From an uncultured beta proteobacterium (GTDB lineage: Bacteria; Pseudomonadota; Gammaproteobacteria; Burkholderiales; Burkholderiaceae_C), in NCBI GenBank assembly GCA_963793855.1, contig CAWCBL010000004.1, positions 1,088,356 through 1,152,355 of the forward strand: 64,000 nt of DNA. The letters run 5' to 3'. The notes under the pieces were generated by a model. The model made no database searches. It had not been told where the DNA came from and saw only the letters and a program-made list of their open reading frames with translations. How positions within the stretch are numbered: the stretch's first letter is position 1; each line of letters begins with the position of its first letter. Position numbers and translations under genes: made by a program. Below are positions 25,143 to 58,885 of this stretch, one piece after another.

Positions 25143-26429
25143 TCAGGGCTGCACGCCCGGCGCGGCAGCGCAGCCGGTGCACTCGTTCACGGCTATCACG
25201 CGCGCCTGGTGAATCCGCTCGCCAATCTGCTTCCCGCTCTGTCCGGCAGCCTGCGCATCTTCCGCCACCAGGTGGGTCGCTACGGACTGGGCGGCGGCCA
25301 GGGCCTGCAGCAGCCGTGGGCGCTGGGGGTAGGGCGAGTCTTCAAACCCGAGCCGGCCCCGCGCATCGCATTCGCAGGCCAGCAAAATGTCGGCAAAGCG
25401 CTGCGGCTTGCGAAACGCATCGCAGCGCTCCAGCAGGCGCACCACGGCGGCTGCGCCGAGGTCGCTGCTGCGGTGAATGTTGCCGTGCTCACGCGCCACC
25501 ACGTCGGCGATTTCGCGGCACTCAATGGGTACGCGAAAGCGCTCGCACACATCCTTGAGCAGGCGCGCACTGCGCTCCTCGTGGCCGATGTGGCGGGGCA
25601 GCATGTCGGCAGGGGTCGTGCCTTTGCCCAGGTCGTGACACAGGCAGGCAAAGCGAACGGGCAGAGGCGCCTGCAGTTGCGCCGCCATGGCCAGCACCAT
25701 CATCAGGTGGACGCCGGTGTCCACCTCGGGGTGGTATTCGCTGCGCTGGGGCACGCCCCAGAGCCTGGCGACTTCAGGCAGCAGCTTTTGCAGGGCACCG
25801 CATTCGCGCAGCACTTGCAGCATGCGCGAGGGCTGCTCTTCCATCAGGCCGCGCGCCAGTTCCTGCCAGACGCGCTCGGCCACCAGCGCATCGACTTCGC
25901 CATGCGCCACCATGTCCCGCATCATCGCCAGCGTTTCGGGTGCGACCGAAAAATCAGCAAACCGCGCCGCAAACCGGGCCAGTCGCAGGATGCGAACCGG
26001 GTCTTCGCGAAACGCATCCGTGACATGGCGCAGGACCTTGTGCCGCAAGTCCTGCCGGCCGCCGTAAGGATCAATCAAGGCCTCAAAATCGGGCTCAAAT
26101 GTGTCTTTGGCGCTTTCAGGATGAGCGGGGGCTGCTATTGAATTAATAGTAAGGTCGCGCCGCGCCAGATCCTGTTCCAGTGTGACGTCGGGCGTCGCAA
26201 ACACCTCAAAGCCGCGATAGCCGCGTGCGGTGTTTCGTTCGGTGCGCGCCAGCGCATACTCTTCGCGGGTATGCGGATGCAGAAATACCGGAAAGTCCCT
26301 GCCCACCGGCAGGAAGCCCTGGTCCATCATTTCCTTGGGCGTCGCGCCCACCACCACCCAGTCATGGTCCTGCACGGGCAGGCCCAGCAACTTGTCACGC
26401 ACCGCACCACCGACCATGTAAATTTCCAT
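25143..26429 (-). CDS. cca: Multifunctional CCA-adding enzyme
   Basis: VGGAVRDKLL, DHDWVV, DLARRDLTIN, EDPVRILR, HD-domain LCHDLGKG. Confidence 0.96.
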   Translation of the reverse strand: MEIYMVGGAVRDKLLGLPVQDHDWVVVGATPKEMMDQGFLPVGRDFPVFLHPHTREEYALARTERNTARGYRGFEVFATPDVTLEQDLARRDLTINSIAAPAHPESAKDTFEPDFEALIDPYGGRQDLRHKVLRHVTDAFREDPVRILRLARFAARFADFSVAPETLAMMRDMVAHGEVDALVAERVWQELARGLMEEQPSRMLQVLRECGALQKLLPEVARLWGVPQRSEYHPEVDTGVHLMMVLAMAAQLQAPLPVRFACLCHDLGKGTTPADMLPRHIGHEERSARLLKDVCERFRVPIECREIADVVAREHGNIHRSSDLGAAAVVRLLERCDAFRKPQRFADILLACECDARGRLGFEDSPYPQRPRLLQALAAAQSVATHLVAEDAQAAGQSGKQIGERIHQARVIAVNECTGCAAAPGVQP

Positions 26430-26484
26430 GGTGGCAGTTTAGCGGCTCAAGGCAGCGCCGATGCAGCGTCGTCCGGGGCGAAAA

Positions 26485-26790
26485 TCAGGAAAACACGGGG
26501 CGGAAAAAGCTGCGCTCGTAGCTGATGATGCAACGGGTGTCTTCCGCGTATTTGAAGGCGGCCTGGCAGTCCGGGTCTTCGAAGGACCGCTGACGATAGC
26601 CTTCATAGGTCGCGAGGCTGTCAAAGGTAAACAGCGCCAGCGCGATGTTGTTGGCCCCTTCGCTGGGCAGGAAATAGCCGTGGTGCCTGCCGCCGAATTT
26701 TTCGACAAGTGGAATCCACATTTTTCCGTAGTGCTCAAATTCCTTGAGTTTGCTGGCATCGAGCACGTAGCGAAGGTAAATGGTGACCAT
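26485..26790 (-). CDS. NIPSNAP family protein
   Basis: HHGYFLPSEGANNIALALFTFDSLATYEGY, YERSFFRP; ATG 26790 chosen. Confidence 0.8.
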   Translation of the reverse strand: MVTIYLRYVLDASKLKEFEHYGKMWIPLVEKFGGRHHGYFLPSEGANNIALALFTFDSLATYEGYRQRSFEDPDCQAAFKYAEDTRCIISYERSFFRPVFS

Positions 26791-26812: not shown

Positions 26813-27499
26813 TTAGCGTTTGATTCGGTAAGGCTCTTCAAACTCGCGGAAATCGTTTTCCGCCAGCGCGCCATCTATCCAGGCCTTGACCCCGGGCAGG
26901 GCGCTCAGGCGCTCCATGTAGGCGCTGATGTCGGATGGCACCGGCAGGGCATAGCTTTTCAGCCGCATGCACACAGGCGCATAAAAGGCGTCGGCAATGC
27001 TGACCTCGCCAAACAGCATTGGCCCCTTGTGTTCTGCCAGCAATTCGCGCCACATGGCAATCAGGCGCGCTACATCAGCGCGCACGGCGGGCCTGTCGCG
27101 CCAGATCAGCTGGCCCGTTTCATGCAGGTCGGCTTCAATGTTCATGGGGCAGGCTGCGCGCAATGCGCCAAAGCCGCTGTGCATTTCTGCGCAGACACTG
27201 CGCGCCCGGGCTCTGGCCTGAACGCTTTGCGGCCAGAGGTTTATTTCAGGGAAACGCTCGGCTGCATACTCTGCAATCGCCAGCGTGTCCCACACCAGCA
27301 GGCCGTCGTCGTCCAGCACCGGCACCTTGCCTGCAGGGTTGACGCGGCTGACTTTCTTCCTGAACTCCGAGGCGACATCGAAAGAGTCAAATCGGATGCT
27401 GACTTCTTCGAAAGGAATGCCCGCCTGCTTGAGCAGCACCCACGGCCGCATGGACCAGGATGAGTAGTTTTTATTGCCGATATATAAGATAAGAGCCAA
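26813..27499 (-). CDS. Glutathione S-transferase with island-supplied N-terminus (TTG start)
   Basis: YIGNKNYSSWSMRPW, GKVPVL, WDTLAIAEY, SIADAFYAP; codons 1-5 (MALIL) lie inside the island end; GGAG 9 nt upstream. Confidence 0.88.
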   Translation of the reverse strand: MALILYIGNKNYSSWSMRPWVLLKQAGIPFEEVSIRFDSFDVASEFRKKVSRVNPAGKVPVLDDDGLLVWDTLAIAEYAAERFPEINLWPQSVQARARARSVCAEMHSGFGALRAACPMNIEADLHETGQLIWRDRPAVRADVARLIAMWRELLAEHKGPMLFGEVSIADAFYAPVCMRLKSYALPVPSDISAYMERLSALPGVKAWIDGALAENDFREFEEPYRIKR

Positions 27500-27550
27500 T
27501 TTATGTCACTCCAAAAAGAGTAGCTTACTGTACTGATTGCTGATAAGGTT

Positions 27551-28918
27551 GTGAAATTACAACCCATGCCACACAACCTTTTTATCCCCAAAGCTTCTAC
27601 GTTAGACGTAGAGGGCTATGGCGCAGTGGGTCATGTTCCCTGCATTTACGGGCCCGGCTGGTTTCTTCAGCATGAAGCATCGGAATACCTGAGAGACAGG
27701 GCCATGCTGGCGTACCGTCCAGGAGTCTCCTCATTGACTTTCTCCGCGTACGGAAGGTATCCAACCACCAAAAGTCTTGAAACATTTGGTCGAGCCCTCG
27801 TGGATTTTTTTGACTGGTGTGAAGTCCGGGCCGTTGATTGGCGGGAAGTTGACTACACCCATCACCTCGTAAATCGATATCAATCAGAAATGTTGAAGGG
27901 GGCTTGGTCCGCATCCGGAAGGCCGCTTGCGCCACGAACAATTAACGCAAGAGTTCAGGAGAGCTGTAACTACCTGACATGGTGCGCCCAGAAGGGTTAC
28001 CGCCGTCCCTTTTCGTTTTTGACCGCTGTTCGCCAAATAACCGTGAACTCCGCGAGTAGAACGCATGGCCAAACTCTCCATATTCAATCCCGAATAGGCC
28101 GAGTCCGGCCCGCACCCACCAACCTTAAGTTGCCGACTGATTGCCAAGTGGTGGATTGGCTCAAAGGCATCGAAATTGAGTGCGGACATACCAAGGCATT
28201 AATGTGTGAACTCATTGTCAAAACGGGTGTCCGCCGTGAGGAGGCTTGTCAGTGGCGCGTCGATACGCTTCCTTTGAGTCGCGCCAACTGGGATGTTGTG
28301 GGTAATTCTGTCACGGTCTCTGTGAAATATGGTGCCAAGGGACAGAAATACCCGGACGCTTACGGCAATTTGTACGGGCCCGAACGACACATCAGAATTT
28401 CGCTGGAGCTAGCTGAACGTATTGCGCACTATCGTGACGAGATTAGGTTTAAGTCTCGCGCCCTGTTTGCTCGTGCTGCATCCAATGCGAGTGAAAGGCT
28501 TGTTCGCTCAAGGAAGGCCGAACAGCGCCTGTTTCTTTCAGAGGCTACAGGAAAGCCCATCTCAGCCCAGGTCCTTTATATAGCATGGGTGGACTCATCA
28601 AGGCTTCCCTACCGCGGATGGTCTCCGCACTTGGGTCGTCATTATTGGGCGTGCAAGACCATGCTGGAGGCCATCGCCCAACGCGTTGAGAATGCGGGAA
28701 ATACCCCGAACCGGCTGGAGCCTACCTGGATCACAGGCATCGCCACTGACGCGCTCATGCTACTGGTGCGGCCTCAGCTGGGGCACGTGAGCCAGGAGAC
28801 GTCCAATATTTACTTGGTATGGTTAGCCAACGCATATATCAAGGCGCAAATTGATGATGACTACGCCATGATGTTGGATGATTTTCCAGGACCAGGCCGC
28901 GAGTCGCGGGACGCATAG
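27551..28918 (+). CDS. ginA: Tyrosine recombinase 1 (GinA-like)
   Basis: TGVRREE (R), PHLGRH (HxxR), QLGHVSQETSNIY (H, Y). Confidence 0.8.
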   Translation: MKLQPMPHNLFIPKASTLDVEGYGAVGHVPCIYGPGWFLQHEASEYLRDRAMLAYRPGVSSLTFSAYGRYPTTKSLETFGRALVDFFDWCEVRAVDWREVDYTHHLVNRYQSEMLKGAWSASGRPLAPRTINARVQESCNYLTWCAQKGYRRPFSFLTAVRQITVNSASRTHGQTLHIQSRIGRVRPAPTNLKLPTDCQVVDWLKGIEIECGHTKALMCELIVKTGVRREEACQWRVDTLPLSRANWDVVGNSVTVSVKYGAKGQKYPDAYGNLYGPERHIRISLELAERIAHYRDEIRFKSRALFARAASNASERLVRSRKAEQRLFLSEATGKPISAQVLYIAWVDSSRLPYRGWSPHLGRHYWACKTMLEAIAQRVENAGNTPNRLEPTWITGIATDALMLLVRPQLGHVSQETSNIYLVWLANAYIKAQIDDDYAMMLDDFPGPGRESRDA

Positions 28919-30759
28919 TGGTCGAACCGTCACGAAAGTCCCGCAAAGGACTGCATGCTCCCGATCTGGCTTTGGTTTCAAATACGTCCGCAGCATCACG
29001 AGATCCGCTTGTTTTTATGGGTAGCCACCTCACTCGCCCCGGATTCTGTGATTTGCGAGAGTTTGCTACGGGCGTCGAAGGATATCCGCTAGATGAGCCT
29101 TCGGCCTTGTGCAGGAAGTCGAACCATCCACAATGGGGCGGAGATTACTCAGGCAGGCCGCAGCTGATCCTGGAAATGGCGCCCTATATTCAAGCGCGCT
29201 ATGAAAGCAAAACGGCCGTAGTAATCAGCAATGTGATAAGCGCGTTAAGATTTTTTTGGCGCTTTCTGGACCGGCTTGATGCTTCTTATCCACTGTCGCC
29301 AGTCTTGAGCGTTGCAGGCTTGAGCCCGGCCCATGCTGCGGCTCTCGTTCGGATGGGTTGGTCTGACCTGCGATCAAGAGTGGTTTTCAGGCTTCTGAAC
29401 TGGACGCGTGCGGGAACGGGTTTGCCGCCGCTCCATATGAAATTCCCGGACCGTGTGGGAAAGCTTCAAAAAACCGTACCTCACGAACACATCAAAGCGA
29501 TAAATACGATCCTTAAGCATCGCGTGTACAGGATCCTCGATTCTTGGGCCAGCAACCCCGCGGAGACCCCCTCCCTGCGGCAAATCCAGCAAGTCGCATA
29601 CCTCTTCCTGCTCAGGAGTGGATGGAATGCATCCACCTTGGTTTCCATGGATCGTGAAGATTGCTTCCGGGCGCATCCCAGTATTGAAGGTCGGCATATT
29701 GTGTATGCACTCAAAACCCGTGCGGGCAAGCGGGAGCAAAACACACAGGGGCTGGACAAGACCCAGATATCGCCTGGCAGCCTGTTCCAATCGGTGATTG
29801 CCCAGACACGGGGCCTGCGCGAGATCGTCAGAAGGGAGCTGGCGCTAGCCCAAGAGGCCCTTGCGCGGTCCCCACATGATGTGAAGATCCTCGCGGAAGC
29901 CGGAAGGCTGCGGGAGGCACTGCGCAGTCCATGGCTTTACAAGCCCACCAAGTTTGGCCCGAAGTCAACGATGCGGACTGTCAGGGCTCTTGACGCTGGA
30001 AGTATGGACCAACGGGTCTATACCCCTGAAGGGATGGTGACGCCGCTGTTTGAGATCATCCAGCTGGCCAATAAAAATCGGTCAGAGGGCAAACGCATTT
30101 CCGAGCAGCTGACGCTCTCCGACATGCGCGATGTATTCATCGCATATGCTTATGAAAACAGTGGTCATAACTGGTTCATTGCCCAGATTGCCGCAGGCCA
30201 CGCGAGTCCGAACTCTACAGTGACTTATCTGCGTAGCCGGGCGTTTAAAAACTACGGCGAGCAACAAGTTCGTCGGCTTACAGACTCCATTTGGACAGAA
30301 ATCGGAGAGCGCCGAACGCTGGATCTGCCGATTTTGTACCGGCTCGTCAATGTCGGTGAAGTCAAGCCCGAAGAACGAGAGCGCTGGGATATCCACAAAA
30401 GGACCATCGTTGGCACCGGATGCGCCGAGCCTACCAAGCCGCCGCCTTTCCTTGCTCCTGACCATATAGATGGGCAGGTCTGCCGCGTCCAGCGCTGCGT
30501 GTTGTGCCCTCATGCCCGCATTTTTTCCGACTCCCTGGATCCGCTGGCCCGGCGGTATGCCGAACTTCAGCATTTAAAGACATTTTTGCCGTTGATGACC
30601 TGGACGCAATCCTTGTTCGCTGACGAATTCGAGACGCTGAAAATCATTCTGGGTAACTTTGCTCCAGAGCAACTGGCAGCGCGCCAGACGTTCTGGTTGA
30701 AAGAGATTTCCGAGAAGCGGCATTTTCCGCTGGATATGACGGGATCCTATGTCAGTTAG
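28918..30759 (+). CDS. ginB: Degenerate tyrosine recombinase 2 (GinB-like)
   Basis: RSGWNAST, SDMRD in place of HxxR, AGHASPNSTVTY; C-terminal Cys cluster; TAGTG overlap with gene 1. Confidence 0.7.
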   Translation: MVEPSRKSRKGLHAPDLALVSNTSAASRDPLVFMGSHLTRPGFCDLREFATGVEGYPLDEPSALCRKSNHPQWGGDYSGRPQLILEMAPYIQARYESKTAVVISNVISALRFFWRFLDRLDASYPLSPVLSVAGLSPAHAAALVRMGWSDLRSRVVFRLLNWTRAGTGLPPLHMKFPDRVGKLQKTVPHEHIKAINTILKHRVYRILDSWASNPAETPSLRQIQQVAYLFLLRSGWNASTLVSMDREDCFRAHPSIEGRHIVYALKTRAGKREQNTQGLDKTQISPGSLFQSVIAQTRGLREIVRRELALAQEALARSPHDVKILAEAGRLREALRSPWLYKPTKFGPKSTMRTVRALDAGSMDQRVYTPEGMVTPLFEIIQLANKNRSEGKRISEQLTLSDMRDVFIAYAYENSGHNWFIAQIAAGHASPNSTVTYLRSRAFKNYGEQQVRRLTDSIWTEIGERRTLDLPILYRLVNVGEVKPEERERWDIHKRTIVGTGCAEPTKPPPFLAPDHIDGQVCRVQRCVLCPHARIFSDSLDPLARRYAELQHLKTFLPLMTWTQSLFADEFETLKIILGNFAPEQLAARQTFWLKEISEKRHFPLDMTGSYVS

Positions 30760-32824
30760 AAAAGTGAATTCCCGGTCCTTAAGTGGATCGCATTGGCAAC
30801 ATTCAACGGCCAATATGGCCACTCGGGCGGGTATGCGTTTGAAGGCGCTTCAAATGATCGATTTGCAGCAGCTTCAATACAGTTCTAAGGAGACGCTCCT
30901 GGCTTGGCAAACTGATGTCGGACTGGGGTCGCAATGGGGCTGCATCGAATTTCCCCCTTCATGGATGACGCCGGCCAATCAAGCTTTTTCGTCACGTAGC
31001 CAAGATGCCGTCAGGCGGTTTGAAGGATCCACGACGAGCAAAGAAGAATTTGAACTGGCGCTGTTGACCTATACCAGATATGCCTTATTGATTTTTTTGG
31101 TCCCTTGCGGTGGAAATGCCCAAATGAGCTGTCTGCTAACGCCCGGCTCCATGATGGTCAACCTGCGTCATTTTTGCACCTTGCTGTGCTTTTGTCTGTG
31201 CAAGCCTGGGTTAGGTAGGGTGGGTCTATTGCAACGCCTGGAAGCCGCTGAGGTTCCGCAAGGCCGCTACACCTTCATTGAACTCAAGCGCATCACATTT
31301 CTCTCGCAGCAAGGCTACTGGACGGATGTGCCCAGATTCGAACCGAAGCGTGGAACGCCTGTCGCCCATTCACCAAAGATGTGGACACACCGAGATCAAT
31401 GCGAACCTTACTTGCCCTTTCCCGATGCCTTTGTGCGGGAAGCTGGTTGGCGAGTGCTCTGGATCGTTCGCGAACTTGGCCCACCTTTGCTTGCACTGAC
31501 AAGGCAACTTGCCGATATCTACCGCCGGTTCCCCCTGAGACAAGGCCGACTTGATACCTCGGTCATGGCAACCCGCATGAGACATTTTATACCGATAGCA
31601 TTGGCTTTTGATTGGAAGGGCAACTCCGGCCCCATCCATGGATTTCCGTTTGAGCACGAATTGCGCTCGAAAGGGGGGGGCGGCGATTTCCAGTGGCCAC
31701 CGCGACGACCGGGAGAAATGATGGCTTTACTGCATTTGCTGCAGGTTGCGCATTTTTTCATATTTGCCCTGTCTATTGGCGGGCGCTTGGGGGAAGTGTT
31801 GTCGTTGCAGCCCGATTGCTTGGTCGAAGGCACTCAACCCGGGGAAGCTACAGTGCAGGGCCGAACCTACAAGCTGGTCTTTGAAAACGAGGGGGAGATG
31901 CGGGACTGGCCGCTGCCCGCAGTCGGTGTGGAGGTCATCCGTCAGCAGATAGTGTTGGGCGAGTTACTGAACACCCTGCAGTCTGATAAATCGATGGTCA
32001 GCAAGCGGAGCAGCGGCTACAAATGCATATGGGTGAGCTCCAACCCCAAAAGCGCCGTACCCAGTTTTTCATGTCAGTTGCAGATGCTTGTCAGGACCCT
32101 GCGCCTTCGCCCCTGGCTTGGCGACGGTTCTCCCCATTCTCATCGTTTTCGCAAAACCATTGCCAGACTGATCGCGTTGACGATCGATGGAGGGGCGCCA
32201 AAAATCCTGATGGATCTGTTTGGGCATAAGGCCATCGAGATGAGCCTGCACTACATGTTGGCGGACAGAAAACTACAGACCGAACTGGTTGAGGTGATAC
32301 GTGCCCAGAAAATCATGCTTGCCGAGGGCATGTTGCAGACGTCAGGACATGGCGGACCTGCGGCACCGCGCATTGCTCAGGCCCTGGAGGCCGAAAAAAT
32401 GCGGATCAAGGCGCTGGGTAAGGTGTTCACCGCAGGCGACCTCACGGAGTTCGCAACGCTGCTGACAGATGGCGGCAAAGCCTGGATGCTGGTTCGACCA
32501 GGCGTGGTTTGTACCAAGTCGCAGGGGGAAGTTGGACCCTGTAATAAACGCCGCGGTACGCCCGAGCCCTCATCGTGTCAGTCGTATTGCGGCCATCGGC
32601 TAGAGGACGCGTTTCTGCGCAATGATGTCGACCTGGTGTTGGCCCGGGCGGTGGACCAGATGGAGTGCGCTGAGAAAAGTGGCCACGAATTTGAACTTGA
32701 GTTATGGCGCGGGCAGGTTCTCGCTCACCTGCCGCGATTTGATGATTTGAAATCCAAGTGGGAGATGCGGCCGTCAGTCAGCCGACTGCTTGAGCAAAAT
32801 GGCAAGGGCGTGCTCCGTGGGTAA
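30749..32824 (+). CDS. ginC: Tyrosine recombinase 3 (GinC-like)
   Basis: GGRLGE (R), HRFRKT, FGHKAIEMSLHY; C-terminal Cys cluster; overlaps gene 2. Confidence 0.75.
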   Translation: MSVRKVNSRSLSGSHWQHSTANMATRAGMRLKALQMIDLQQLQYSSKETLLAWQTDVGLGSQWGCIEFPPSWMTPANQAFSSRSQDAVRRFEGSTTSKEEFELALLTYTRYALLIFLVPCGGNAQMSCLLTPGSMMVNLRHFCTLLCFCLCKPGLGRVGLLQRLEAAEVPQGRYTFIELKRITFLSQQGYWTDVPRFEPKRGTPVAHSPKMWTHRDQCEPYLPFPDAFVREAGWRVLWIVRELGPPLLALTRQLADIYRRFPLRQGRLDTSVMATRMRHFIPIALAFDWKGNSGPIHGFPFEHELRSKGGGGDFQWPPRRPGEMMALLHLLQVAHFFIFALSIGGRLGEVLSLQPDCLVEGTQPGEATVQGRTYKLVFENEGEMRDWPLPAVGVEVIRQQIVLGELLNTLQSDKSMVSKRSSGYKCIWVSSNPKSAVPSFSCQLQMLVRTLRLRPWLGDGSPHSHRFRKTIARLIALTIDGGAPKILMDLFGHKAIEMSLHYMLADRKLQTELVEVIRAQKIMLAEGMLQTSGHGGPAAPRIAQALEAEKMRIKALGKVFTAGDLTEFATLLTDGGKAWMLVRPGVVCTKSQGEVGPCNKRRGTPEPSSCQSYCGHRLEDAFLRNDVDLVLARAVDQMECAEKSGHEFELELWRGQVLAHLPRFDDLKSKWEMRPSVSRLLEQNGKGVLRG

Positions 32825-33332
32825 AAAAGGCCAAGTGACTGCACCCCATGCCTTGCTTCAGAGCGCAAAGGATCGTACCGGAGCCATTTCCGTCCGTGTT
32901 AGGGATGCCTTGAAAAGCATGGAGACGGATATCGAGCGTCATCAGGGTCTTTATCCCTACAACGCCGGTCGCCTTACACAGTCCGAAGTTTGCCGCCGGG
33001 CCGGCATCAGCAAACAAACTTTGCAAAATCAGACGCACAGGAACACAACGCGCCTTTTGATTGATGAATGGCTGGACACAGTCAGGCGCAGGACAATTAC
33101 GGGCAGTCACGTGGTTCGACGTGCCGTGACTGATCGTGTCGAAGCGTGGAAAAAGCTGCATTCGGACATTGCGCATGCCTACCTGATCGATAGTATGCAC
33201 TTGATCAACGCTCGCCGTCGGATTAACGAGCTTGAAATCCTGAATCGGCACCTCCAGGCGCAACTCGACAAGACCAGTGTCAAACGCATCGCGATCTTGC
33301 CCAACAAGAAAAATAGCACAGAACCGAGATAG
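32790..33332 (+). CDS. ginD: Small HTH/coiled-coil accessory protein (GinD-like)
   Basis: TQSEVCRRAGISKQTL HTH-like segment plus C-terminal coiled coil; overlaps gene 3. Confidence 0.65.
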   Translation: MSKMARACSVGKKGQVTAPHALLQSAKDRTGAISVRVRDALKSMETDIERHQGLYPYNAGRLTQSEVCRRAGISKQTLQNQTHRNTTRLLIDEWLDTVRRRTITGSHVVRRAVTDRVEAWKKLHSDIAHAYLIDSMHLINARRRINELEILNRHLQAQLDKTSVKRIAILPNKKNSTEPR

Positions 33333-33801
33333 ATTCCCCCGGTCCAAGCTTTTGTATGTAGGAAATGGAGAAGGTTGTTGCAGATGGCACACTAGAAAAA
33401 TATTGGCTTAGAGGCCGGGTAGGTATCGTATGCTTGCGCCACTAGCCTCGCCTCCCGGACCCGCCCGGTGTAGGCCGCTAACCGACCAACATAGTTGTCG
33501 TCAAGGTGCGGCCCGATCCATGACCACGATCTGCTATGGTGCCGACATGGTTTGTCGGGCAGGGCCGTGTGGCGCTTACGGCCATGTTGGCAGACAGCAC
33601 CAGACTGACTCCGGCTGTGGATCAATCAAAATGCGCACTCTAAACAGGTCACTCAGTGCCGCGGTTTTTGCCATGGATAGTAGCTATGATTTTGATAGCG
33701 GAAGAATTCGCCAATGAGTAAGGTCGGACATTGCGTCATCGATCCTGCAAAAGGCAGAAATTCTCGGAAGGATACTGGAACAAGGTTTTTACTTTATCCT
33801 T

Positions 33802-35013
33802 TTATTCTTCCATTGGAATCGACGCCGCCTCCGGGTAGAGATTCGGAAATAGCTGGTTCAGGGCGTCGCGCGGGAAGCTAATGCCGACATCACCCTTGGG
33901 CCCGTCACTGACCAGCAAGCCGTCCTTGAGGAGCCGTGACAGCACCTTCAGACCGATACTCACTTCCAATCCTGTCATCTGTACGAATTCACTGCGCGAG
34001 ATTGGTCCCTCTGTGAGCACATGGTGCAGCGGCAAGACCGCTTCCTGGCAGCAGCGTGGATGCTCGGTCCCCTCGCTTCGCACGAGAATGAGGTCGGCGA
34101 TGCGCTGCTTGAGCTGGGAAAGGTCAAGCATCTTCGCCATGAACGTGACTTGGTCCTCGCAAAGCTCGATGAAGAAGTGGCACCACGCCCGGAGCATTCG
34201 CTCGCTCAGATTGCCGCGTCCATCCAGGTCACCGTGGCGTGCCATATCGGCGTTGGCCAGCGCCACGTAGTACTTATCCCGGTGATGGGCCAGGCCCCGG
34301 TTGACGGACCACAGCCCGGCACTCAAGGGCAGCAGAGCGCCATGCGTCTGTAGCCGACAGGCCCGGCCGTTCCCATCCAGAAATGGGTGGATCCACAACA
34401 TCCGGTGGTGCTCCGCCGCGATGGCATACAGGACCGAGTCTGAATTCCAAGTGCGGCTGTATACGGCATCGGCTCGTTGGAGGAATCCGGGCAGCGACTG
34501 CCAGGCAGGCGGTTGATGTCGTCCAACCGTCACGTCTTCCTGACGCAAAAGGCCGGGCTCTATCACTTTTCCTTCCGGCGTGCGACGATCTTCAAGGGCC
34601 AGCCGCCCATAGAGGCCGGCATGCGCGCGCAGCAGAAAGACGCTGCTCAAGGGGTGGACTCCCCCCTCTGCCAGCGACTCAAGCTCCTTCTCGGCTTCCA
34701 TATGGGCAAGCGCAATTCGCTGACGCCGTGCAACGTCCGGCTTGTTCGAGAAATCGTTTTTCAGCGCCCGGCCAATGTCTTGAGGATGAGCGCTCTCGCC
34801 TTCGAGGTGGTTCGAGTAGTACGAATTCATCGAACGGACCACCTCGCGCAGGCGCTCTCGCGTATTGGGGTGAGTTGCCCTCTGGAGCCGGAACGACATT
34901 TCGGCCACCCCGCGCGTACGCAGCACGAACTCATTGAGCTCCGCTTGGGGAAGCAATGGATCGAACTGGTGAGGCTGGTCGTAGACCCTAAGGGGAGTAG
35001 ATGGTGCTGACAT
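33802..35013 (-). CDS. Fic family protein with C-terminal winged HTH
   Basis: Canonical HPFLDGNGRACR Fic motif. Confidence 0.9.
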   Translation of the reverse strand: MSAPSTPLRVYDQPHQFDPLLPQAELNEFVLRTRGVAEMSFRLQRATHPNTRERLREVVRSMNSYYSNHLEGESAHPQDIGRALKNDFSNKPDVARRQRIALAHMEAEKELESLAEGGVHPLSSVFLLRAHAGLYGRLALEDRRTPEGKVIEPGLLRQEDVTVGRHQPPAWQSLPGFLQRADAVYSRTWNSDSVLYAIAAEHHRMLWIHPFLDGNGRACRLQTHGALLPLSAGLWSVNRGLAHHRDKYYVALANADMARHGDLDGRGNLSERMLRAWCHFFIELCEDQVTFMAKMLDLSQLKQRIADLILVRSEGTEHPRCCQEAVLPLHHVLTEGPISRSEFVQMTGLEVSIGLKVLSRLLKDGLLVSDGPKGDVGISFPRDALNQLFPNLYPEAASIPMEE

Positions 35014-35015
35014 GA

Positions 35016-35312
35016 ATGTCGGTTTTGTTAGGCATGCGGGTCACATTCAGACTCCTGCAACCCGCATCATTCTCAAAGCTGATTCCCATTGTTAAAGCTG
35101 CACGTAAAGACCTCGATACCGAACTTAGCGCAGACGACATCGACGCCTTGGTAAATCTCTATCTTGACCATGCGCGATATGAAGAAGAGGTGTTCCTCCC
35201 TTTAGCAAAGTCTATTTTGGGGCGCAACGGCGATCACATGGCTGCATTGGGAATGTCACTTCACATGCGACACGCGACAAGTGTTGCCCGAAGACATTAC
35301 GGTGCAATTTAG
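35016..35312 (+). pseudogene. Probable 5'-truncated hemerythrin-like fragment
   Basis: HARYEEEVFLPLA (HxxxEE) in a short ORF starting 2 bp from the divergent Fic start. Confidence 0.45.
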
Positions 35313-35493
35313 CAGGCGAGGGCGGCAAACCATATCGTAGCCGTCGTTAGTAAACTGGTCATAGATATGATATTAAGCATGAGTGTTGTTGAAGTACGTT
35401 CTCTCAGCCTTTCGACGGTGGTGCAATCTTCTTAGAGTTTAGGTACAACTCGATTTCTTACATCGTTAATATTGAATTCGACACCTGCTTTTA

Positions 35494-36408
35494 ATGAATC
35501 AAGCTAATTTTTCTCGCCAGAGGACCGCAGAGATATTTTTGTGGGTCGTACCTTTTATATGGTCGTCTAACTACATCATTGCAAGGGTAGCTGGCGGCGT
35601 CATACCACCCAACTCGCTTGCATTTGGACGGTGGATGACTGCACTTCTGTTAATGCTGCCGTTTGTCTGGAAAGATAGGAAAACGTTGGTAGAAGCTGCC
35701 AAGAACGAATGGCATCAATGGGTTTTTCTCGGCGCTCTAGGTATATGGATCTGCGGTGCATTCGTCTATATTGGTGGGAAAACTACTACAGCTGGGAACA
35801 TTTCGTTGATCTATGCTGTTGCTCCAGTGGGAATCGCCGTGACCAGTAGTTTCGTCTTGAACGTGAAACTATCAAGCCGCCAGCGTCTGGGGTTGCTGAG
35901 CGCTCTGTTCGGGGTGCTATTCATCATTACAAAAGGCGATTTACTTTCTTTGCTTAAAGTCAGGTTTGTAGCTGGCGACCTTTGGATCATGGTGGCCACG
36001 GGCTCTTGGGTCGCCTATTCAATACTGCAACAAAGGTGGACCAGCCAGTTACGGCCTCTGCAAAGGCTTTTTTGCGTAACTGCAGCAGGACTCATGATCC
36101 TATTTCCATTCACTATTGCAGAGATTTGCACACTGTCTTTGTCCTGGATTTCCCCCTCAACGATTTCGCTCGTGTTGGCAGCTGGCATATTTCCAGGGTT
36201 GCTTTCCTATTTGGCTTACTCGTTTATGGTTGGGCAGTTGGGCGCCAGCCGAGCAGGTCTGGTCTTGTACTTGGGACCGGTCTATGCTGCATTTGTGGCA
36301 TGGTGGCTTCTTGGCGAGGTTCCGCAGTGGTTCCATTTTGTCGGCGCGTCACTCGTGCTCCCGAGTATCTACTTGGCGAGTTTAGAATCAAACGGATCTT
36401 CGGTTTAG
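35494..36408 (+). CDS. DMT/EamA family transporter
   Basis: About ten TM helices in two repeats; GDLWIMVATGSWVAYSI, LLGEVPQWFHFVG. Confidence 0.88.
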   Translation: MNQANFSRQRTAEIFLWVVPFIWSSNYIIARVAGGVIPPNSLAFGRWMTALLLMLPFVWKDRKTLVEAAKNEWHQWVFLGALGIWICGAFVYIGGKTTTAGNISLIYAVAPVGIAVTSSFVLNVKLSSRQRLGLLSALFGVLFIITKGDLLSLLKVRFVAGDLWIMVATGSWVAYSILQQRWTSQLRPLQRLFCVTAAGLMILFPFTIAEICTLSLSWISPSTISLVLAAGIFPGLLSYLAYSFMVGQLGASRAGLVLYLGPVYAAFVAWWLLGEVPQWFHFVGASLVLPSIYLASLESNGSSV

Positions 36409-37010
36409 TGGCGCTTGCGATGAAGGCTACGGGATTTAATCAGCATACTTTACCGGCAGCTGTCGAGTGCGCGCGCGCGGCATTTTCATTATCTGCATCA
36501 ACCTACGGGTGTGGACGCTGACCTGCCGTGTGTTCAAACGCGAGCGCAAACGTTCCTTACAAATGGCTGGTTTTGGGTAAGAACATTAATGAGGGGAGTT
36601 GGTCGGATGCGGGTGTAGTGGCCGTTGAATTCAGTGCCACATTGCTGACCTTGAGACGTGAGAGTTGAATTGCCGCTATGGGGCAAACAGTTTGGATGGT
36701 CCAATGACGGCAGTTAGTCGGGCCTGTGTGAAAACGCCGGCCGTAACGGCCTTTCCGAGCTTTTATCAAAAATCGACCTCATAGAACGGCCCATACTCGA
36801 CGGTCGTGTGTCCGGGAATGGTTGCGGAACCCTTGGTTTTTCGTAAGCGCTCAATTAACCTTTCAATTGCCCAAAAATTTCTGATACTGGAACCATGTTT
36901 GTCATCCAGTTGACTGTGCCGCCCGTTGTTGTGCGAACAACGAGATCAGGACGAGTGAGCATCAGGTGCAGGGAGACTTTGCGGCGAGCGGTGATATACA
37001 GAGCGAACAG

Positions 37011-37130
37011 ACATGGATAGACGACGAACTGTTGGGCTGCAAGTTCAAGGATGCCATCGAGAAACTCCAATGGTATGCCATGCGGTGGAAGATCGAGACC
37101 TTCCACAAGATTCTGAAGTACGGCTGCGTA
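37011..37130 (+). pseudogene. IS4-family transposase remnant with internal deletion
   Basis: WIDDELLGCKFKD fused in frame to AIEKLQWYAMRWKIETFHKILK (Y-R-E-K motif). Confidence 0.6.
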
Positions 37131-37276
37131 TTCCGGTCTAGTTGACCATCTGATAAGATTTGTTGTATATTTACTTGGCTCGTATCTTGTTGATTAATAT
37201 GAGTGTTTAATAAGTAAACATATTTTCGAATTTCAGCAAGGCGGTAATTGCGCCATGCATTCTTCAAATTAAGAAC

Positions 37277-37420
37277 TTATTCGTAAATAATTTTCACGTC
37301 CAGTTTGATTTTCCTGAACGCCATGATGGATGCCGCCATGTGGTTTAGCGCCAGGAAGCTGCGGTCAAGTTTCTCGTACCGCACCAGCAGCTTTCGGAAT
37401 CGGCTGAACATATAGTCCAA
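37277..37420 (-). pseudogene. IS5-family transposase C-terminal remnant
   Basis: RFRKLLVRYEKLDRSFLALNHMAASIMAFRK...IIYE matches recalled IS5-family C-termini. Confidence 0.6.
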
Positions 37421-37647
37421 CGGGCGGCTATATGACGATAATTTCGTCAAAGGTATCATTTACCATCGACCGGTTGACTACAAAACCAATATCGGACACT
37501 CACAACAGCTCATCGCAATGGAATGGTGACTGCCCCAGCACAAGCCCACATCAAGCACAGTCGGAGTGCCAAGGCGAACTCAAGCTGCACAGCCACAGGA
37601 GTCTCCAAAGGCCACTAGAAGGGCTAGCTGTTCTACGAATACGCAGC

Positions 37648-38526
37648 CTAGGCGACGCTCCCTTTAGTGCTTCGCACAAGGGCCTTGAAGTCGGTCTCAA
37701 GAATGATGCGAATCGGATTGCCTTCTACCACCAGTTGTTCAGCTTTCCGATGCTTTGTACTCTTTTTGTGTCCGGCCAGCTTTGACACATCTTGGTCACC
37801 GATCACGAGAATTGTGGTCTTCTTGGTCACGTTTTGACCAACTTCACATCCGATGCTAGCTGCCAAGTCTGCTGCCTCGGCTCGTGGCAATTCAAGCGCA
37901 CCAGTGAACACAATGACTTCCCCAAACAGGTCACCTTCGGGATTTCCGTCCCGATGAATAGCAGCCCCTGAGGACGCCCTCTCTGGATTGATGGGTAGAG
38001 TGACCCGCCGGGTCCAATCGTCAAGGTTCTTCTGCGACTCCTGAAACGCAGCGAGTAAGACGTAGCCAGCAGCCTTGGCGTCCTCAAGCGCATCATGGTG
38101 TTTGAATTCGTAGCCGATTCTTTTGCAGACGTTCGATAAGCCGTATCCTGACCATGCGAGTTCTTGCCACGTTCGCCTGACCACTCGGGCCGAATCGAGC
38201 CACGTGGTCGCGACGGGTTCCAGCTTGTACTTGGCGAAGGCACGAGCGATGGCGATTCGGTCAAAGTGGGTGTGGCAAACGGTCACGGTATTCGCCATCA
38301 AGCCTCGAAGCTTATCGGCGACCTCTCGCAGTGTTTGCTTACCCTGCACCATGTGAGGCTCTATGCCGTGAATGGAAACATTTACATTGTCAAAATAATC
38401 TTCGGGGTCAACAAGGGCAGACCACTCGTCAATGAGGAAGCCCCCGGAAAAGACGGCAATGCCAATCTGGCAAATTGAACCCATGTCAGGGTTAGCGGTC
38501 TCTACATCGATTGCAACAAAATTCAT
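37648..38526 (-). CDS. DEDDh (DnaQ-like) 3'-5' exonuclease with C-terminal BRCT domain
   Basis: IDVET (ExoI), HTHFD (ExoII), HHDALEDA (ExoIII); BRCT VIVFTGAL...VTKKTTILVIG. Confidence 0.88.
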   Translation of the reverse strand: MNFVAIDVETANPDMGSICQIGIAVFSGGFLIDEWSALVDPEDYFDNVNVSIHGIEPHMVQGKQTLREVADKLRGLMANTVTVCHTHFDRIAIARAFAKYKLEPVATTWLDSARVVRRTWQELAWSGYGLSNVCKRIGYEFKHHDALEDAKAAGYVLLAAFQESQKNLDDWTRRVTLPINPERASSGAAIHRDGNPEGDLFGEVIVFTGALELPRAEAADLAASIGCEVGQNVTKKTTILVIGDQDVSKLAGHKKSTKHRKAEQLVVEGNPIRIILETDFKALVRSTKGSVA

Positions 38527-38543
38527 ACTCGTGTGTCGCCGGT

Positions 38544-38939
38544 CTAGACTTCAGTGAACTTGGTCAAGTCAGTCGTGAAAACAACAGTCATCTTGGTGGC
38601 CGTGCAGGTCAGTTCAGGTTCATCTTCGATGTCAATGCTCAGGTCTTCACCTCGCAGGCCCTGCCACATTGCTAGATAGTTGAATGCCCCGTACTTCAGC
38701 TTCTTCTGAATTTCCTTCTCGACGCCACCCCTCCAAGGGAGAACGACAAGCTCACCGTTGAGTGCTCGTGAGGCCAGCGCCGGTTCTTCTATGCTTTTCT
38801 CACGGCCTCGTTCCCAACTGGTTATCAATCCTTGGGTGATATCCCCCCATCGTTCTTCCCAGTCTGGGTCCAGCCGCAACGGCTCAACAATCGAACGATG
38901 TATCTTCATCAACCGTGTCCACCCTGATGTTTTGGTCAT
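38544..38939 (-). CDS. Hypothetical protein, Trp-rich, 17 bp upstream of the exonuclease
   Basis: ORF 38544-39062 in track; natural composition from MTKTSG/MKIHRS onward; start uncertain. Confidence 0.6.
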   Translation of the reverse strand: MTKTSGWTRLMKIHRSIVEPLRLDPDWEERWGDITQGLITSWERGREKSIEEPALASRALNGELVVLPWRGGVEKEIQKKLKYGAFNYLAMWQGLRGEDLSIDIEDEPELTCTATKMTVVFTTDLTKFTEV

Positions 38940-39260
38940 CTGAATGTACCCGACCAATAGACGCGACCCCAGAAAAGCCGCCATGGGCACATTGCCGAAC
39001 GCCACGAATGGCTCCTGACCGGCCCCACAAATCATGCAATTGGGCTGACAGAAAGCTGGCACTGGCCACTGACTCTTTACGCTGCATAACGGAAGTCCGC
39101 TTCAGACTGGTTCCTGATATAGAGTTTGCCAAACTACCTTCTCCAGAGCCGACATTGACATCAACAGCCCGAACGTGGGCAATATGGTGGCCGGTGAAGA
39201 CTGTTTGCGTCTATTCGGGCTGGCCAGACGGCAAGGCAACATCTACAGAGATATGAGCGA

Positions 39261-43073: not shown

Positions 43074-43447
43074 GAGAAAATTTAAGGCATACCAAGGCCA
43101 ATAGCTTACTTATGTGATCTGAGCCCCAAGTCGATGCGCCCCGAACGTCGGATCCCTACTGTATGACAGACCTCGCCTCGAAACCGACGAACTTCCGCAA
43201 TGAGTCGTCAAAATCCGGCCATGAACGATCATTAGCCTGAGATCAATTGGGTTCCCTGTAAGCCGACACCGATGATCGACAGCAAACGCTGCAAAGCGGA
43301 AGTCTCTTTCATACTGAAACCGGATACCCGTGCGAACCAAGGCCTAGCTGAGGAATGCCGCCAACGAGCACATTTTCACGCTGGAGCGCTCACCCCAACG
43401 GGTTCGGAGTGTATGCGTCCGGCGAACACAGCTTGACTGTTGAACGA

Positions 43448-45070: not shown

Positions 45071-45152
45071 GAACGCAAAGTGTGCCCGTGCCTCCGAAAA
45101 TTGCCTATTGGCGCATCCCCCAATAGACGCAAACACACACCGCAATCCAGAA

Positions 45153-45506
45153 TCACACCACGCTGATAATGCCGCCCTCGCCGATGCGCGACCAGGGTAA
45201 GCCCAGTACCAAGGCATCCAATTGGGCGCGGCTCAGACTCACACGATTGACGCCACCGGGCGCACTTGCCGAACTTGTCTGGGGCCAAACGAAGTGGCCC
45301 CGGTGCAGCCGTCTGGCTGCCAGCCAAATGCCAATCCCGTCATGCACCAGCACCTTCATGCGGTTGGCGCGCCGGTTGGCAAAGAGGTAGGCTGTATGCG
45401 GGTGCGCGGCACCGAATACACCCACCACACGGGCTAGCGCCGTGTCCGTGCCAGCGCGCATGTCCAGGGGCACGGTGGACAGCCATACCGCGTCGATGCG
45501 AATCAC
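45153..45506 (-). CDS. tnpB: IS66 accessory protein TnpB
   Basis: DMRAG, FANRR, KVLVHDGIGIWLAARRL; GTG start overlaps tnpA stop. Confidence 0.92.
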   Translation of the reverse strand: MIRIDAVWLSTVPLDMRAGTDTALARVVGVFGAAHPHTAYLFANRRANRMKVLVHDGIGIWLAARRLHRGHFVWPQTSSASAPGGVNRVSLSRAQLDALVLGLPWSRIGEGGIISVV

Positions 45507-45883
45507 TGCAAGCACTCGCGCAGCCACTGGGCGCAGGCGGCGCCGCCGGCAAGTGGCCAGTGCACGACGATGGTGGCGTTGGCGCGTTTGACCTCAACGC
45601 GGATGTCAGCAGTGGGCTGCACGGTTGCCGGCTCTGTAGCCGAATTCAAGGTGACAGGCACAAAGGTCTGTGGCCGATTGACCAGTGTGCCCTGGCTGTG
45701 TTCTCGCAACCAGCGGTGCACGATGTTGGCATTGATGCCGTGCTGCATTGCCACCCCGGCAATGGACGCGCCGGGCTGGGCGCAGGCTCCGACAACTTGC
45801 AGTTTGAGTTCGGGACTGTAGAACCGTCGCTTGGGAACTTGGGGGGTGCGAGTCTCGCTCGCAATGGTGTGCATGATGTTCAT
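45503..45883 (-). CDS. tnpA: IS66 TnpA (HTH)
   Basis: RRFYSPELKLQVV, VAMQHGINANIVHRW, FVPV. Confidence 0.88.
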   Translation of the reverse strand: MNIMHTIASETRTPQVPKRRFYSPELKLQVVGACAQPGASIAGVAMQHGINANIVHRWLREHSQGTLVNRPQTFVPVTLNSATEPATVQPTADIRVEVKRANATIVVHWPLAGGAACAQWLRECLQ

Positions 45884-46162
45884 CGCGCACACTATCTCTG
45901 AATGTCAGCAAGCCTTCAATGTGTGTTCGCCGGACGCATACTTCGGAGTGTCTTCCAGGATCCCAGAGTCAAACTTGCCGAAGGTTAAGACTTCTTGGGG
46001 TCGGATCCATAGTTTTATTCGGCTGGATGCAGACCAGGCAGAAACTCAATTCCCGTTCGCCTGACCAACTCGCTGTAGCTGATTGGCCTTGAGGCCCGGG
46101 TACCGTGTCAGCGACTGGCCGGACGTCTACTGATTTGACTGGCGAACTCAGAATGCGACGGT

Positions 46163-49902: not shown

Positions 49903-49903
49903 C

Positions 49904-53021: not shown

Positions 53022-53024
53022 GGC

Positions 53025-58872: not shown

Positions 58873-58885
58873 AACAGGAATCCCC

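What the first reader, a model, noticed from the sequence alone, without database searches (positions are those of the whole stretch)
27476..27512. Island integrates into gst codon 4/5 and rebuilds the gene with its own RBS and TTG start
The left junction reads GGAG-N9-TTG GCT CTT ATC TTA|TAT ATC GGC AAT (MALIL|YIGN). The right junction keeps GGAG-N5-ATG CTC AAG CTC|T (MLKL). The empty site restores MLKLYIGNKNYSSWS exactly. There is no long direct repeat: about 1 shared base and only loose similarity (ATAT-CGGCAAT vs ATATTCGTCAAT). gst and probably the downstream NIPSNAP-cca genes are now 35 kb from their native promoter, so the island end must supply transcription for a tRNA-maturation gene. 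gst as a target for this island type is not one I recall.
Basis: partly seen in the sequence, partly recalled or inferred. Interest (0 to 1): 0.72.

Follow-up and report, generated by a model that had tools for sequence, protein, structure and literature searches.

The report
Island rebuilds start of gst gene
A 34.8-kb mobile island carrying anti-phage defence genes sits exactly between codons 4 and 5 of a Polaromonas glutathione-transferase gene and supplies a new ribosome-binding site, start codon and first five codons, so the gene stays whole; this is a clean new example of behaviour already known for this island class, not a new kind of element.

Summary
Near-identical island-free Polaromonas contigs read GGAGACCTC-ATG CTC AAG CTC TAT ATC GGC. 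The window matches them up to ...AAGCTCT on the SDR side and from TATATC... on the gst side. One base is shared and no host base is lost or gained. Of the 120 best gst homologues, 111 start MLKL and only the window starts MALIL.

The insert (27485-62310) is a GInt/SE-class island:
- four overlapping recombination genes at the gst-proximal end: a catalytic tyrosine recombinase, a recombinase-fold protein with Asn at the first Arg, a large catalytic recombinase, and a small HTH protein
- defence cargo
- an AT-rich far end

Its terminus carries TAAGAGCC 5 nt from the junction, the same 8-mer at the same inferred spacing as in the published Pseudomonas GInt attL. That GInt also inserts at a gene's 5' end.

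A second Polaromonas species has no recombinase homologue but keeps a 29-nt homologue of the terminus (GGAG-N8-ATG GGC CTT AGC TTA) fused to an intact gst. This argues that the cassette is used.

One weak outward promoter candidate lies in the 66-bp spacer. This is a new member of a known kind, with gst as a new target.

The parts
26813..27499 (-). Rebuilt gst (228 aa, TTG start). Codons 1-5 come from the island and codons 6-228 from the host.
   Evidence: ORF list. GST_N and GST_C Pfam domains are intact. It is 97-98% identical to island-free MLKL-type orthologues.
27485..27499 (-). Island-supplied start and four codons: TTG GCT CTT ATC TTA (M A L I L), replacing the native ATG CTC AAG CTC (M L K L).
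   Evidence: The homologous ATG GGC CTT AGC TTA is fused to gst in G012.
27509..27512 (-). Island-supplied Shine-Dalgarno GGAG, 9 nt before the TTG. It overlaps the in-frame stop TGA.
   Evidence: It is conserved as GGAG-N8-ATG in G012.
27490..27497 (+). TAAGAGCC, the putative recombinase core of the island's left terminus, 5 nt from the junction. On the gene-sense strand it reads GGCTCTTA and contributes part of the TTG start and codons 2-3.
   Evidence: The same 8-mer, at the same spacing if the type crossover is read as tgt|aga, occurs in the published attL/attI of Pseudomonas GInts (Table S2 of PMC5385486). It occurs once in the 64-kb window.
27527..27555 (-). Candidate outward promoter TTCACA-17-TACAGT pointing at gst, inside the 66-bp spacer between gst and the first recombinase gene.
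   Evidence: a 9/12 match and the only hit in 2 kb, against 1.1 expected, so weak on its own.
27566..28918 (+). Recombinase 1 (IntA/GinA-like, 450 aa from the ATG). Catalytic R228, H360, R363, H412 and Y421 are invariant in the family (numbered from GTG 27551).
   Evidence: It is called as 450 aa in L055.
28918..30759 (+). Recombinase-fold protein 2 (613 aa). It has TGWN, with Asn237 in place of the first Arg, and keeps R404, H428 and Y437. The C-terminus has a Cys cluster.
   Evidence: Alignment A2. No Pfam or PDB sequence hit. The AlphaFold model (pLDDT 79.6) matches XerH, IntI, Tn1549 Int and Cre.
30749..32824 (+). Large catalytic recombinase 3 (691 aa) with R346, K375, H465, R468, H493 and Y502, plus a C-terminal Cys cluster.
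   Evidence: Alignment A3. The profile aligns the catalytic boxes to Tn1549 Int 6EN0.
32790..33332 (+). Small fourth protein (180 aa, weak HTH signal), the GinD/Srap position.
   Evidence: Conserved directly after gene 3 in about 20 loci. Weak MarR/HTH hits.
33333..62204 (.). Cargo: Fic, EamA, DEDDh-BRCT exonuclease, nSTAND3 NTPase, IS66, two ABC-3C/Lamassu-type systems, a DUF2326 protein, an HNH protein, an IS3 fragment and a HAD_SAK_2 protein.
   Evidence: Pfam scans. GC is 0.54 against 0.61-0.62 in the flanks.
62205..62236 (+). AT-rich TTAAAC x5.5 tandem repeat in the island's far end.
62312..62332 (-). Orphaned native gst initiation region: GGAG-ACCTC-ATG CTC AAG CTC. It now opens a 12-codon ORF running into the island.
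   Evidence: The ATG CTC AAG CTC portion is identical in the empty sites L044, L045 and L046. The Shine-Dalgarno matches L044 (GGAGACCTC), while L045 and L046 read GGAAACCTC.
25143..26759 (-). NIPSNAP (26439-26759) and cca (25143-26429), 53 and 9 nt downstream of gst and of each other. They are probably co-transcribed with gst.
   Evidence: No other promoter-like site was found between gst and cca.
62414..63520 (-). SDR/NDUFA9-like epimerase-family gene, the native upstream neighbour of gst. This is the longest ORF; homologues are called at 318 aa.

Best explanation
A 34,826-bp GInt/SE-class integrative island inserted by tyrosine-recombinase site-specific recombination between codons 4 and 5 of the chromosomal gst of a Polaromonas strain. 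Its machinery is three tandem tyrosine-recombinase-fold genes plus a small fourth gene. The site overlaps the gene's start (attB ...TTGAGCATG on the plus strand). Recombination left no target duplication, only one shared base, as is usual in the Tn554/SE/GInt class, where the overlap regions need not be identical. The recombinase-proximal terminus abuts the body of gst in divergent orientation. Its last 29 nt (GGAG-N9-TTG GCT CTT ATC TTA) act as a portable translation-initiation region. The beta-1 strand residues MLKL become MALIL and the rest of the enzyme is untouched. Transcription of gst, and probably of NIPSNAP-cca, is then expected to start in the 66-bp island spacer or inside the first recombinase gene, as shown by RT-PCR for a Pseudomonas GInt. 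Shown here: the insertion, its exact borders, the intact ORF, the island class, and conservation of the cassette in a second species. Inferred: use of the TTG, the outward promoter, and mobility of this particular copy.
For: - Empty sites at 97-98% identity show a precise, scar-free insertion.
- 111 of the 120 closest homologues start MLKL and none but the window starts MALIL.
- The four-gene operon is conserved in about 20 loci across Beta-, Gamma- and Alphaproteobacteria. Genes 1 and 3 have full catalytic sets and gene 2 has a recombinase fold.
- The far end is AT-rich and island GC is lower than the flanks.
- TAAGAGCC lies 5 nt from the junction, as in the published GInt attL if that crossover is read as tgt|aga. 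Both attB sites overlap the target's ATG.
- In G012, a 29-nt homologue of the terminus is all that remains next to an intact gst. It has ATG for TTG, the frame is kept, and the Shine-Dalgarno is kept. Homology stops exactly at TGGAG, and no recombinase homologue is found in that genome.
- The chance of such a start plus Shine-Dalgarno at a random end is 2.4%.
- Other family members also abut a host start codon: dcd in L033, and a membrane protein in L022.
- An outward promoter candidate lies in the right place.
- The outward promoter and 5'-end insertion are published for GInts (PMC5385486).
Against:
- The promoter match is no better than chance for a 2-kb scan.
- TTG with a 9-nt spacer is a weak initiation signal, and one gene caller chose Met17 instead (L055).
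- The 2.4% chance figure is small but not negligible.
- G012 is a fragmented MAG (82% complete, 7% contamination), and its SDR-side junction is not preserved.
- Other family members sit in mid-gene (comM in L032) or face the other way (ybgC in L020 and L023). Rebuilding a start is therefore not universal in this lineage.
- No close relative of this island (all are 50% IntA identity or less) is seen at gst.
Confidence: 0.72

Rival explanations
1. The insertion is real, but gst is effectively knocked out or crippled. Under this reading the in-frame TTG and GGAG are a by-product of the recombinase-binding sequence at the island terminus. NIPSNAP and cca would be expressed from unrecognised internal promoters or by read-through.
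For: The TTG and codons 2-3 lie inside the conserved terminal motif GGCTCTTA, which the Pseudomonas GInts also have but read in another frame. The promoter candidate is weak. A gene caller picked Met17. gst differs from its closest relatives by as many non-synonymous as synonymous codons: 3 vs 3 against L044 and 6 vs 7 against L045. These counts are too few to decide anything.
Against: The ORF is intact over 228 codons. The G012 lineage has kept the same cassette in frame with an intact gst at 74% identity. That is long after its insertion, and after the recombinase genes are no longer detectable there. The start codon there changed TTG to ATG (or the reverse) without loss of frame. A protein starting at Met17 would lack the beta-1 strand and the YSSWS active-site region.
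Confidence: 0.2
2. This strain did not undergo site-specific integration itself. It received the occupied gst locus from another Polaromonas by homologous recombination of the flanks, through transformation, transduction or conjugation. The junction would then be older than the strain, and the island may no longer be mobile.
For: GInts and SEs lack transfer genes, and their transfer has not been reproduced in the laboratory (PMC5385486, PMC10214605). The island carries IS66 and an IS3 fragment. No excision data are available.
Against: All four recombination genes are intact and overlap as in active elements. The flanks are nearly identical to the empty-site relatives right up to the junction. 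This rival concerns the route of arrival only and does not change what the junction is.
Confidence: 0.25
3. MALIL is the ancestral or an allelic gst start, and the MLKL fragment at 62312-62323 is a stray duplicate.
For: None beyond the bare possibility.
Against: Empty sites at 97-98% identity, and nine further species, have SDR-MLKL-gst contiguous. The MALIL codons are contiguous with the recombinase operon and belong to the lower-GC island.
Confidence: 0.01

Closest known systems
[quoted passage not shown] 2017, Sci Rep 7:46254, PMC5385486); also called the Tn6571 family
   Same: A four-gene recombination operon sits at one end, followed by tens of kb of cargo and a short AT-rich far end. Insertion is highly site-specific in the end of a gene. 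[quoted passage not shown] The flanking repeats are imperfect. The core TAAGAGCC lies next to the crossover. Defence systems as cargo are known (PMC10121019). Size (34.8 kb) is close to the reported median of 34.9 kb.
   Different: Here the degenerate recombinase-fold protein is gene 2, not gene 3. The proteins are larger: 450/613/691/180 aa against 401/437/543/132 aa in the E. coli Sakai GInt. Only protein 1 shows profile similarity to that reference (hhalign probability 77%). gst is not among the published targets I read. The papers describe an outward promoter but not an island-encoded Shine-Dalgarno, start codon and N-terminal codons.
SEs, strand-biased circularizing integrative elements (Idola et al. 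2023, Mob DNA 14:7, PMC10214605)
   Same: The gene order is ordinary recombinase, recombinase-fold protein lacking canonical residues, large recombinase, then a small auxiliary protein. Sizes are almost the same (Tfp 585, IntB about 678, Srap 174 aa). There is no target-site duplication. The structural match of protein 2 is best to XerH 5JJV, as reported for Tfp.
   Different: SEs were found only in Gammaproteobacteria, and no Tfp or Srap homologue was detected in Beta- or Alphaproteobacteria. I found no convincing 13-19 bp terminal inverted repeats. Protein 2 here keeps R, H and Y of box II. No SE reference sequence was available for a direct comparison. tblastn of protein 3 against the plasmid collection, in which I expected (but did not check) the SE-bearing Vibrio plasmid pSEA1 to be held, found no Vibrio record.
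SXT/R391 ICEs in prfC (Hochhut & Waldor 1999, cited in PMC2791158 and PMC4344509)
   Same: A tyrosine-recombinase element integrates into the 5' end of a conserved gene. From my memory of the 1999 paper, not re-read here, the element supplies a new promoter and 5' coding sequence, so the target stays functional.
   Different: SXT/R391 has a single integrase plus Xis and near-identical attP and attB. It is a conjugative element of about 100 kb with unrelated proteins.
Tn554 (TnpA, TnpB, TnpC)
   Same: [quoted passage not shown]
   Different: It has no third recombinase-fold protein, it is a Firmicutes element of 6.7 kb, and its target is different.

Membership tests
GInt | An operon of three tyrosine-recombinase(-like) genes plus a small fourth gene delimiting one end of the island | tested here: met
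   Four overlapping genes lie at 27566-33332. Catalytic residues are present in genes 1 and 3. Gene 2 has a recombinase fold. The block is conserved in about 20 loci.
GInt | Genes 1 and 2 are canonical integrases and gene 3 (GinC) is the degenerate one | tested here: not met
   Here gene 2 carries Asn at the first Arg and D-x-R in place of H-x-x-R, while gene 3 is complete. In the Sakai GInt, Pfam detects integrase in genes 1 and 2 only.
GInt | Sequence homology to reference Gin proteins | tested here: inconclusive
   hhalign of the family profiles against E. coli Sakai GinA-D gives protein 1 vs GinA at probability 77% over 264 columns. All other pairs are at 22% or less. The P. stutzeri and P. 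syringae references could not be fetched.
GInt | Tripartite structure with cargo DNA and a short AT-rich far end | tested here: met
   About 29 kb of cargo. A TTAAAC x5.5 repeat and AT-rich sequence lie at 62190-62240.
GInt | Site-specific insertion in a gene end, definable against an empty site | tested here: met
   Exact empty sites L044, L045 and L046.
GInt | Flanking 10-17 nt imperfect direct repeats (attL/attR) | tested here: inconclusive
   The best candidates (ATTGCCG-ATAT / ATTGACGAATAT, and AGATAAGAGCC / AGCTT-GAGCA) do not exceed shuffles. The core TAAGAGCC does match the published attL at the same inferred spacing (roughly p = 0.007 by my count of comparisons).
GInt | Excision as a circle (attI) with or without a restored attB | not testable with these tools
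GInt | Outward promoter expressing the 5'-truncated target gene | tested here: inconclusive
   One 9/12 sigma-70-like site at 27555-27527 on the correct strand, found at the chance rate for the region scanned. No RNA data.
SE | Gene order intA-tfp-intB-srap with one ordinary and one large RHRY recombinase | tested here: met
   Order and sizes of 450/613/691/180 aa compare with Tfp 585, IntB about 678 and Srap 174 aa, derived from Additional file 3 coordinates. Catalytic sets are in genes 1 and 3.
SE | 13-19 bp imperfect terminal inverted repeats (C and C') | tested here: not met
   The best inverted match between the ends is 17 nt and lies about 80 nt inside the left end. At the termini themselves I counted by eye at most 9 of 14 matching positions.
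SE | No target duplication, with a 6-bp footprint carried from the previous site | tested here: inconclusive
   No duplication: one shared base. TGTCGA at 62305-62310 could be such a footprint, but this cannot be told from a single insertion.
SE | Sequence homology to Tfp and Srap | not tested
   No SE reference sequence was reachable. Accessions of Pseudomonas homologues of genes 1 and 2 (WP_149414981.1, WP_199751022.1, WP_198721181.1, WP_198721182.1) are not in the SE or GInt lists held. Additional file 10 is truncated.
SE | Host range within Gammaproteobacteria | tested here: not met
   The host is Polaromonas, in Betaproteobacteria. The family also occurs in Alphaproteobacteria.
SXT/R391 ICE | Int(SXT) integrase, Xis and conjugation genes, with insertion in prfC | tested here: not met
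   None of these were seen in the Pfam scans of the island. The resemblance is an analogy of outcome only.

The most novel reading that the evidence does not exclude
The recombinase-proximal terminus of GInt-class islands may be a dual-purpose sequence. Its roughly 30 nt would be both the att core bound by the recombinases and a portable Shine-Dalgarno/start-codon cassette, tuned to the reading frame of the target. This would let the islands colonise the start codons of housekeeping genes (gst here; dcd, an ABC transporter and others elsewhere) at little cost. The cassette can outlive the island: in a second Polaromonas species only the 29-nt cassette remains, domesticated as the gene's permanent initiation region. 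In addition, the lineage with SE-like gene order in Beta- and Alphaproteobacteria may bridge the SE and GInt families, which were reported as separate.
Probability: 0.35. Interest if true: 0.55.

Novelty: new member of a known kind. Interest (0 to 1): 0.38.

Why it matters
It gives a base-exact, naturally occurring pair of occupied and empty sites for a poorly studied class of recombinase islands that move defence and resistance genes. It shows how such an island can sit inside the start of a chromosomal gene, upstream of a tRNA-maturation gene, without destroying it. The 29-nt remnant in a second species suggests that island termini can be recruited as permanent gene starts. For annotation, it warns that TTG-started genes next to recombinase trios may be miscalled: one caller started this gst at Met17.

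Tried and rejected
- **Direct repeats at the junctions.** A 23-26 nt direct repeat inside both ends (27505-27528 and 62262-62288) is only marginal: 74 of 1000 shuffles and 16 of 2000 random island windows reach its score.
- **Terminal inverted repeats of the SE type.** None were convincing.
- **Assignment to SE or GInt by accession.** Homologue accessions and plasmid records were absent from the supplementary lists held.
- **tblastn of protein 3 against plasmids.** Six records matched, none a known SE or GInt reference.
- **Closer relatives of the island at gst.** None of 23 GTDB loci has gst beside the operon. Only 2 of 120 other Polaromonas genomes have an IntA homologue, at 32-33% identity. 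The closest metagenomic relatives (49-50% identity; L059, L060, L061) have unrelated ends and targets.
- **dN/dS on gst.** There are too few differences to be informative.
- **L055 as independent evidence.** It is 100% identical to the window over 3,633 nt, so it is probably the same strain.

Full report
**1. Observation**

On the minus strand the left junction reads ...CTCTTTTT GGAG TGACATAAA TTG GCT CTT ATC TTA | TAT ATC GGC AAT AAA AAC TAC TCA TCC TGG TCC ATG.... The 228-aa ORF 26813-27499 starts at this TTG. An in-frame TGA lies 9 nt upstream, so no earlier start is possible. The protein has complete GST_N and GST_C domains. The right junction reads GGAG ACCTC ATG CTC AAG CTC | T CG ACA TAT TCG TCA ATG CCT TTG TAA. 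The exact island-specific span is 27485-62310 (34,826 bp), with one shared base (27484 = 62311).

**2. The empty site exists in nature**

A protein search with gst returned 120 close homologues at 80-100% identity, named Polaromonas where a name is given. Of these, 111 start MLKL and the rest start M[LRP][TK]L, apart from one call at Met17 and one with a 4-residue N-terminal extension. Only the window starts MALIL.

The three closest, at 97-98% identity, lie on contigs L044 (GCA_049299755.1), L045 and L046. Their gene order is SDR, a 91-nt spacer, gst, NIPSNAP, cca. Aligned to them, the window's SDR-side flank matches through ...ATGCTCAAGCTCT and the gst-side flank matches from TATATCGGC.... 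The overlap is a single T, and no base is lost or duplicated.

Nine more distant species of the genus show the same adjacency and start.

**3. What the insert is**

Four overlapping plus-strand genes follow the left end.

- **Gene 1** (ATG 27566, 450 aa). Its N-terminus MPHNLFIP fits the family consensus MxxxxFWP. It has invariant R228, H360-x-x-R363, H412 and Y421.
- **Gene 2** (613 aa). It has no Pfam or PDB sequence match. Its family alignment shows TGWN where recombinases have TG-x-R, then D-F-R404, H428 and Y437, plus a Cys cluster. An AlphaFold model (pLDDT 79.6) matches XerH, integron integrase, Tn1549 Int and Cre over both domains.
- **Gene 3** (691 aa). It has R346, K375, H465-x-x-R468, H493 and Y502. 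Its profile aligns these catalytic boxes to Tn1549 Int.
- **Gene 4** (180 aa). It has a weak HTH signal.

The same four-gene block occurs in about 20 loci from Burkholderiales, Gallionella, Methyloglobulus, Pseudomonas, Bosea and Roseovarius.

The cargo is mostly anti-phage defence: two ABC-3C/Lamassu-type sets and an nSTAND3 protein, together with Fic and IS66. The far end is AT-rich with a TTAAAC repeat. Island GC is 0.54 against 0.61-0.62 in the flanks.

**4. Comparison with the literature**

This anatomy is that of GInts (PMC5385486). GInts have a ginABCD operon at one end, cargo, a short AT-rich far end, imperfect flanking repeats and high site specificity. [quoted passage not shown]

The published att strings (Table S2) add a direct link. 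The type attL is tgtagaCGTA-AGAGCCtgt. The window's left end is |TAAGA TAAGAGCC AAT. The 8-mer TAAGAGCC occurs once in the window. It lies 5 nt from the junction here and, if the type crossover is read as tgt|aga, also in the type.

The type attB, tgtatacCGTATTGAGCCatg, reads on the other strand as ATG GCT CAA TAC.... I infer that this is the target's start codon. The window's attB is TTGAGCATG, which reads ATG CTC AA on the other strand. In both cases the target's ATG and first codons are left at the far end, and the gene body is joined to the recombinase-proximal end.

In gene order and sizes the element matches SEs better: IntA-Tfp-IntB-Srap, with Tfp 585, IntB about 678 and Srap 174 aa (PMC10214605). 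A reference GInt from E. coli Sakai has 401/437/543/132 aa, with Pfam integrase hits on genes 1 and 2 only. SEs, however, were reported only from Gammaproteobacteria, and no convincing terminal inverted repeats are present here. Profile comparison with the Sakai GInt is significant only for protein 1. I therefore file the element as GInt/SE-class and not as a proven member of either.

**5. Is the rebuilt start used?**

The indirect evidence is as follows.

- A start codon in frame with no stop, plus a 4-nt Shine-Dalgarno at 4-10 nt, occurs at only 2.4% of random pseudo-ends from this island.
- A second Polaromonas species, G012, has gst starting GGAG-TTACAAAA-ATG GGC CTT AGC TTA | TAT ATC GGC.
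  - This 29-nt block is homologous to the window's island terminus, and the homology stops exactly at TGGAG.
  - Upstream lies hipA rather than SDR, and the genome has no IntA homologue.
  - The gst ORF is intact at 74% identity.
  - The simplest reading is that an old related insertion decayed while the cassette was retained, with TTG and ATG exchanged in frame.
  - The junction pattern occurs in only these two of 201 genus genomes.
- Other family members also place this terminus at a host start codon: dcd in L033, where relatives keep the same ATG behind a native Shine-Dalgarno, and a membrane protein in L022. It is not universal, since others interrupt comM (L032) or face ybgC the other way (L020, L023).
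- The only sigma-70-like match in 26300-28300 lies at 27555-27527 on the minus strand, inside the 66-bp spacer and pointing at gst. One match is what chance gives for that length.
- The native SDR-gst spacer shows no promoter-like site and no terminator after SDR. gst may therefore originally have been co-transcribed with SDR.

**6. Junction chemistry**

There is no repeat beyond chance on either side. Together with the single shared base, this fits the Tn554/SE/GInt class. In that class the overlap regions differ between partners and are resolved by replication or repair. TGTCGA at 62305-62310 could be a footprint from a previous site in the SE sense. This cannot be decided from one insertion.

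**7. Verdict**

The phenomenon is known in kind, from GInt 5'-end insertion with an outward promoter and from SXT/R391 in prfC. That SXT integrates in the 5' end of prfC is stated in PMC2791158 and PMC4344509; that it supplies a new promoter and N-terminus is my recollection of Hochhut & Waldor 1999.

What is new:
- gst as a target, which is absent from the target lists read
- the explicit island-borne Shine-Dalgarno, start and five codons
- the 29-nt remnant in a second species
- a widespread lineage with SE-like gene order outside Gammaproteobacteria

My tests agree with that note.

Noticed in passing
L010 1-412 and L014 588-2085 (genome G012): In a second Polaromonas species the SDR-gst interval holds a PAS-domain gene and hipBA instead of the native spacer. 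It ends in a 29-nt homologue of this island's terminus that supplies the gst start (MGLSL). No recombinase homologue was found in that genome.
   Followed up: partly
L020 and L023 about 7900-8000; L032 6950-7888; L018 4328-5326; L033 7337-7909: Other members of the same four-gene island family sit in ybgC (codon ~25, with the gene reading toward the recombinase), in the middle of comM, in the 5' region of dinB, and immediately at the ATG of dcd. Target choice is diverse within the lineage.
   Followed up: partly
window 27505-27528 and 62262-62288: An imperfect 23-26 nt direct repeat (TCACTC..AAAA..GT.AGCTTAC) lies about 20 nt inside each island end. In a circular junction the two copies would flank the crossover by about 44 bp. 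Its significance is marginal.
   Followed up: partly
L055 (Logan ERR10755943 contig), equivalent to window about 25900-29560: A public assembly 100% identical to the window over 3.6 kb calls gst from Met17 (212 aa) instead of the TTG (228 aa). The gene callers disagree on the rebuilt start.
   Followed up: yes
window 57752-59488: A 578-aa minus-strand ORF whose C-terminal half matches the N-terminal HTH part of an IS3 transposase. It is probably a fused or truncated IS remnant inside the defence cargo.
   Followed up: no
window 62250-62323, minus strand: The orphaned native gst Shine-Dalgarno and ATG now open a 12-codon ORF (MLKLSTYSSMPL) that reads into the island's far end. Any native promoter activity would now transcribe into the island.
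   Followed up: no
window 28918-30759 and 30749-32824: Proteins 2 and 3 both end in conserved four-Cys clusters (C502/C522/C527/C530 and C588/C598/C610/C614). These are possible zinc-binding modules, which I do not recall in classical tyrosine recombinases.
   Followed up: no
L039 (P. aeruginosa plasmid pPUV-7, 2939-10022): A different multi-recombinase cassette (784-aa and 700-aa integrases, a 314-aa protein, then a 435-aa integrase) is distantly similar to protein 3 (21% identity).
   Followed up: no
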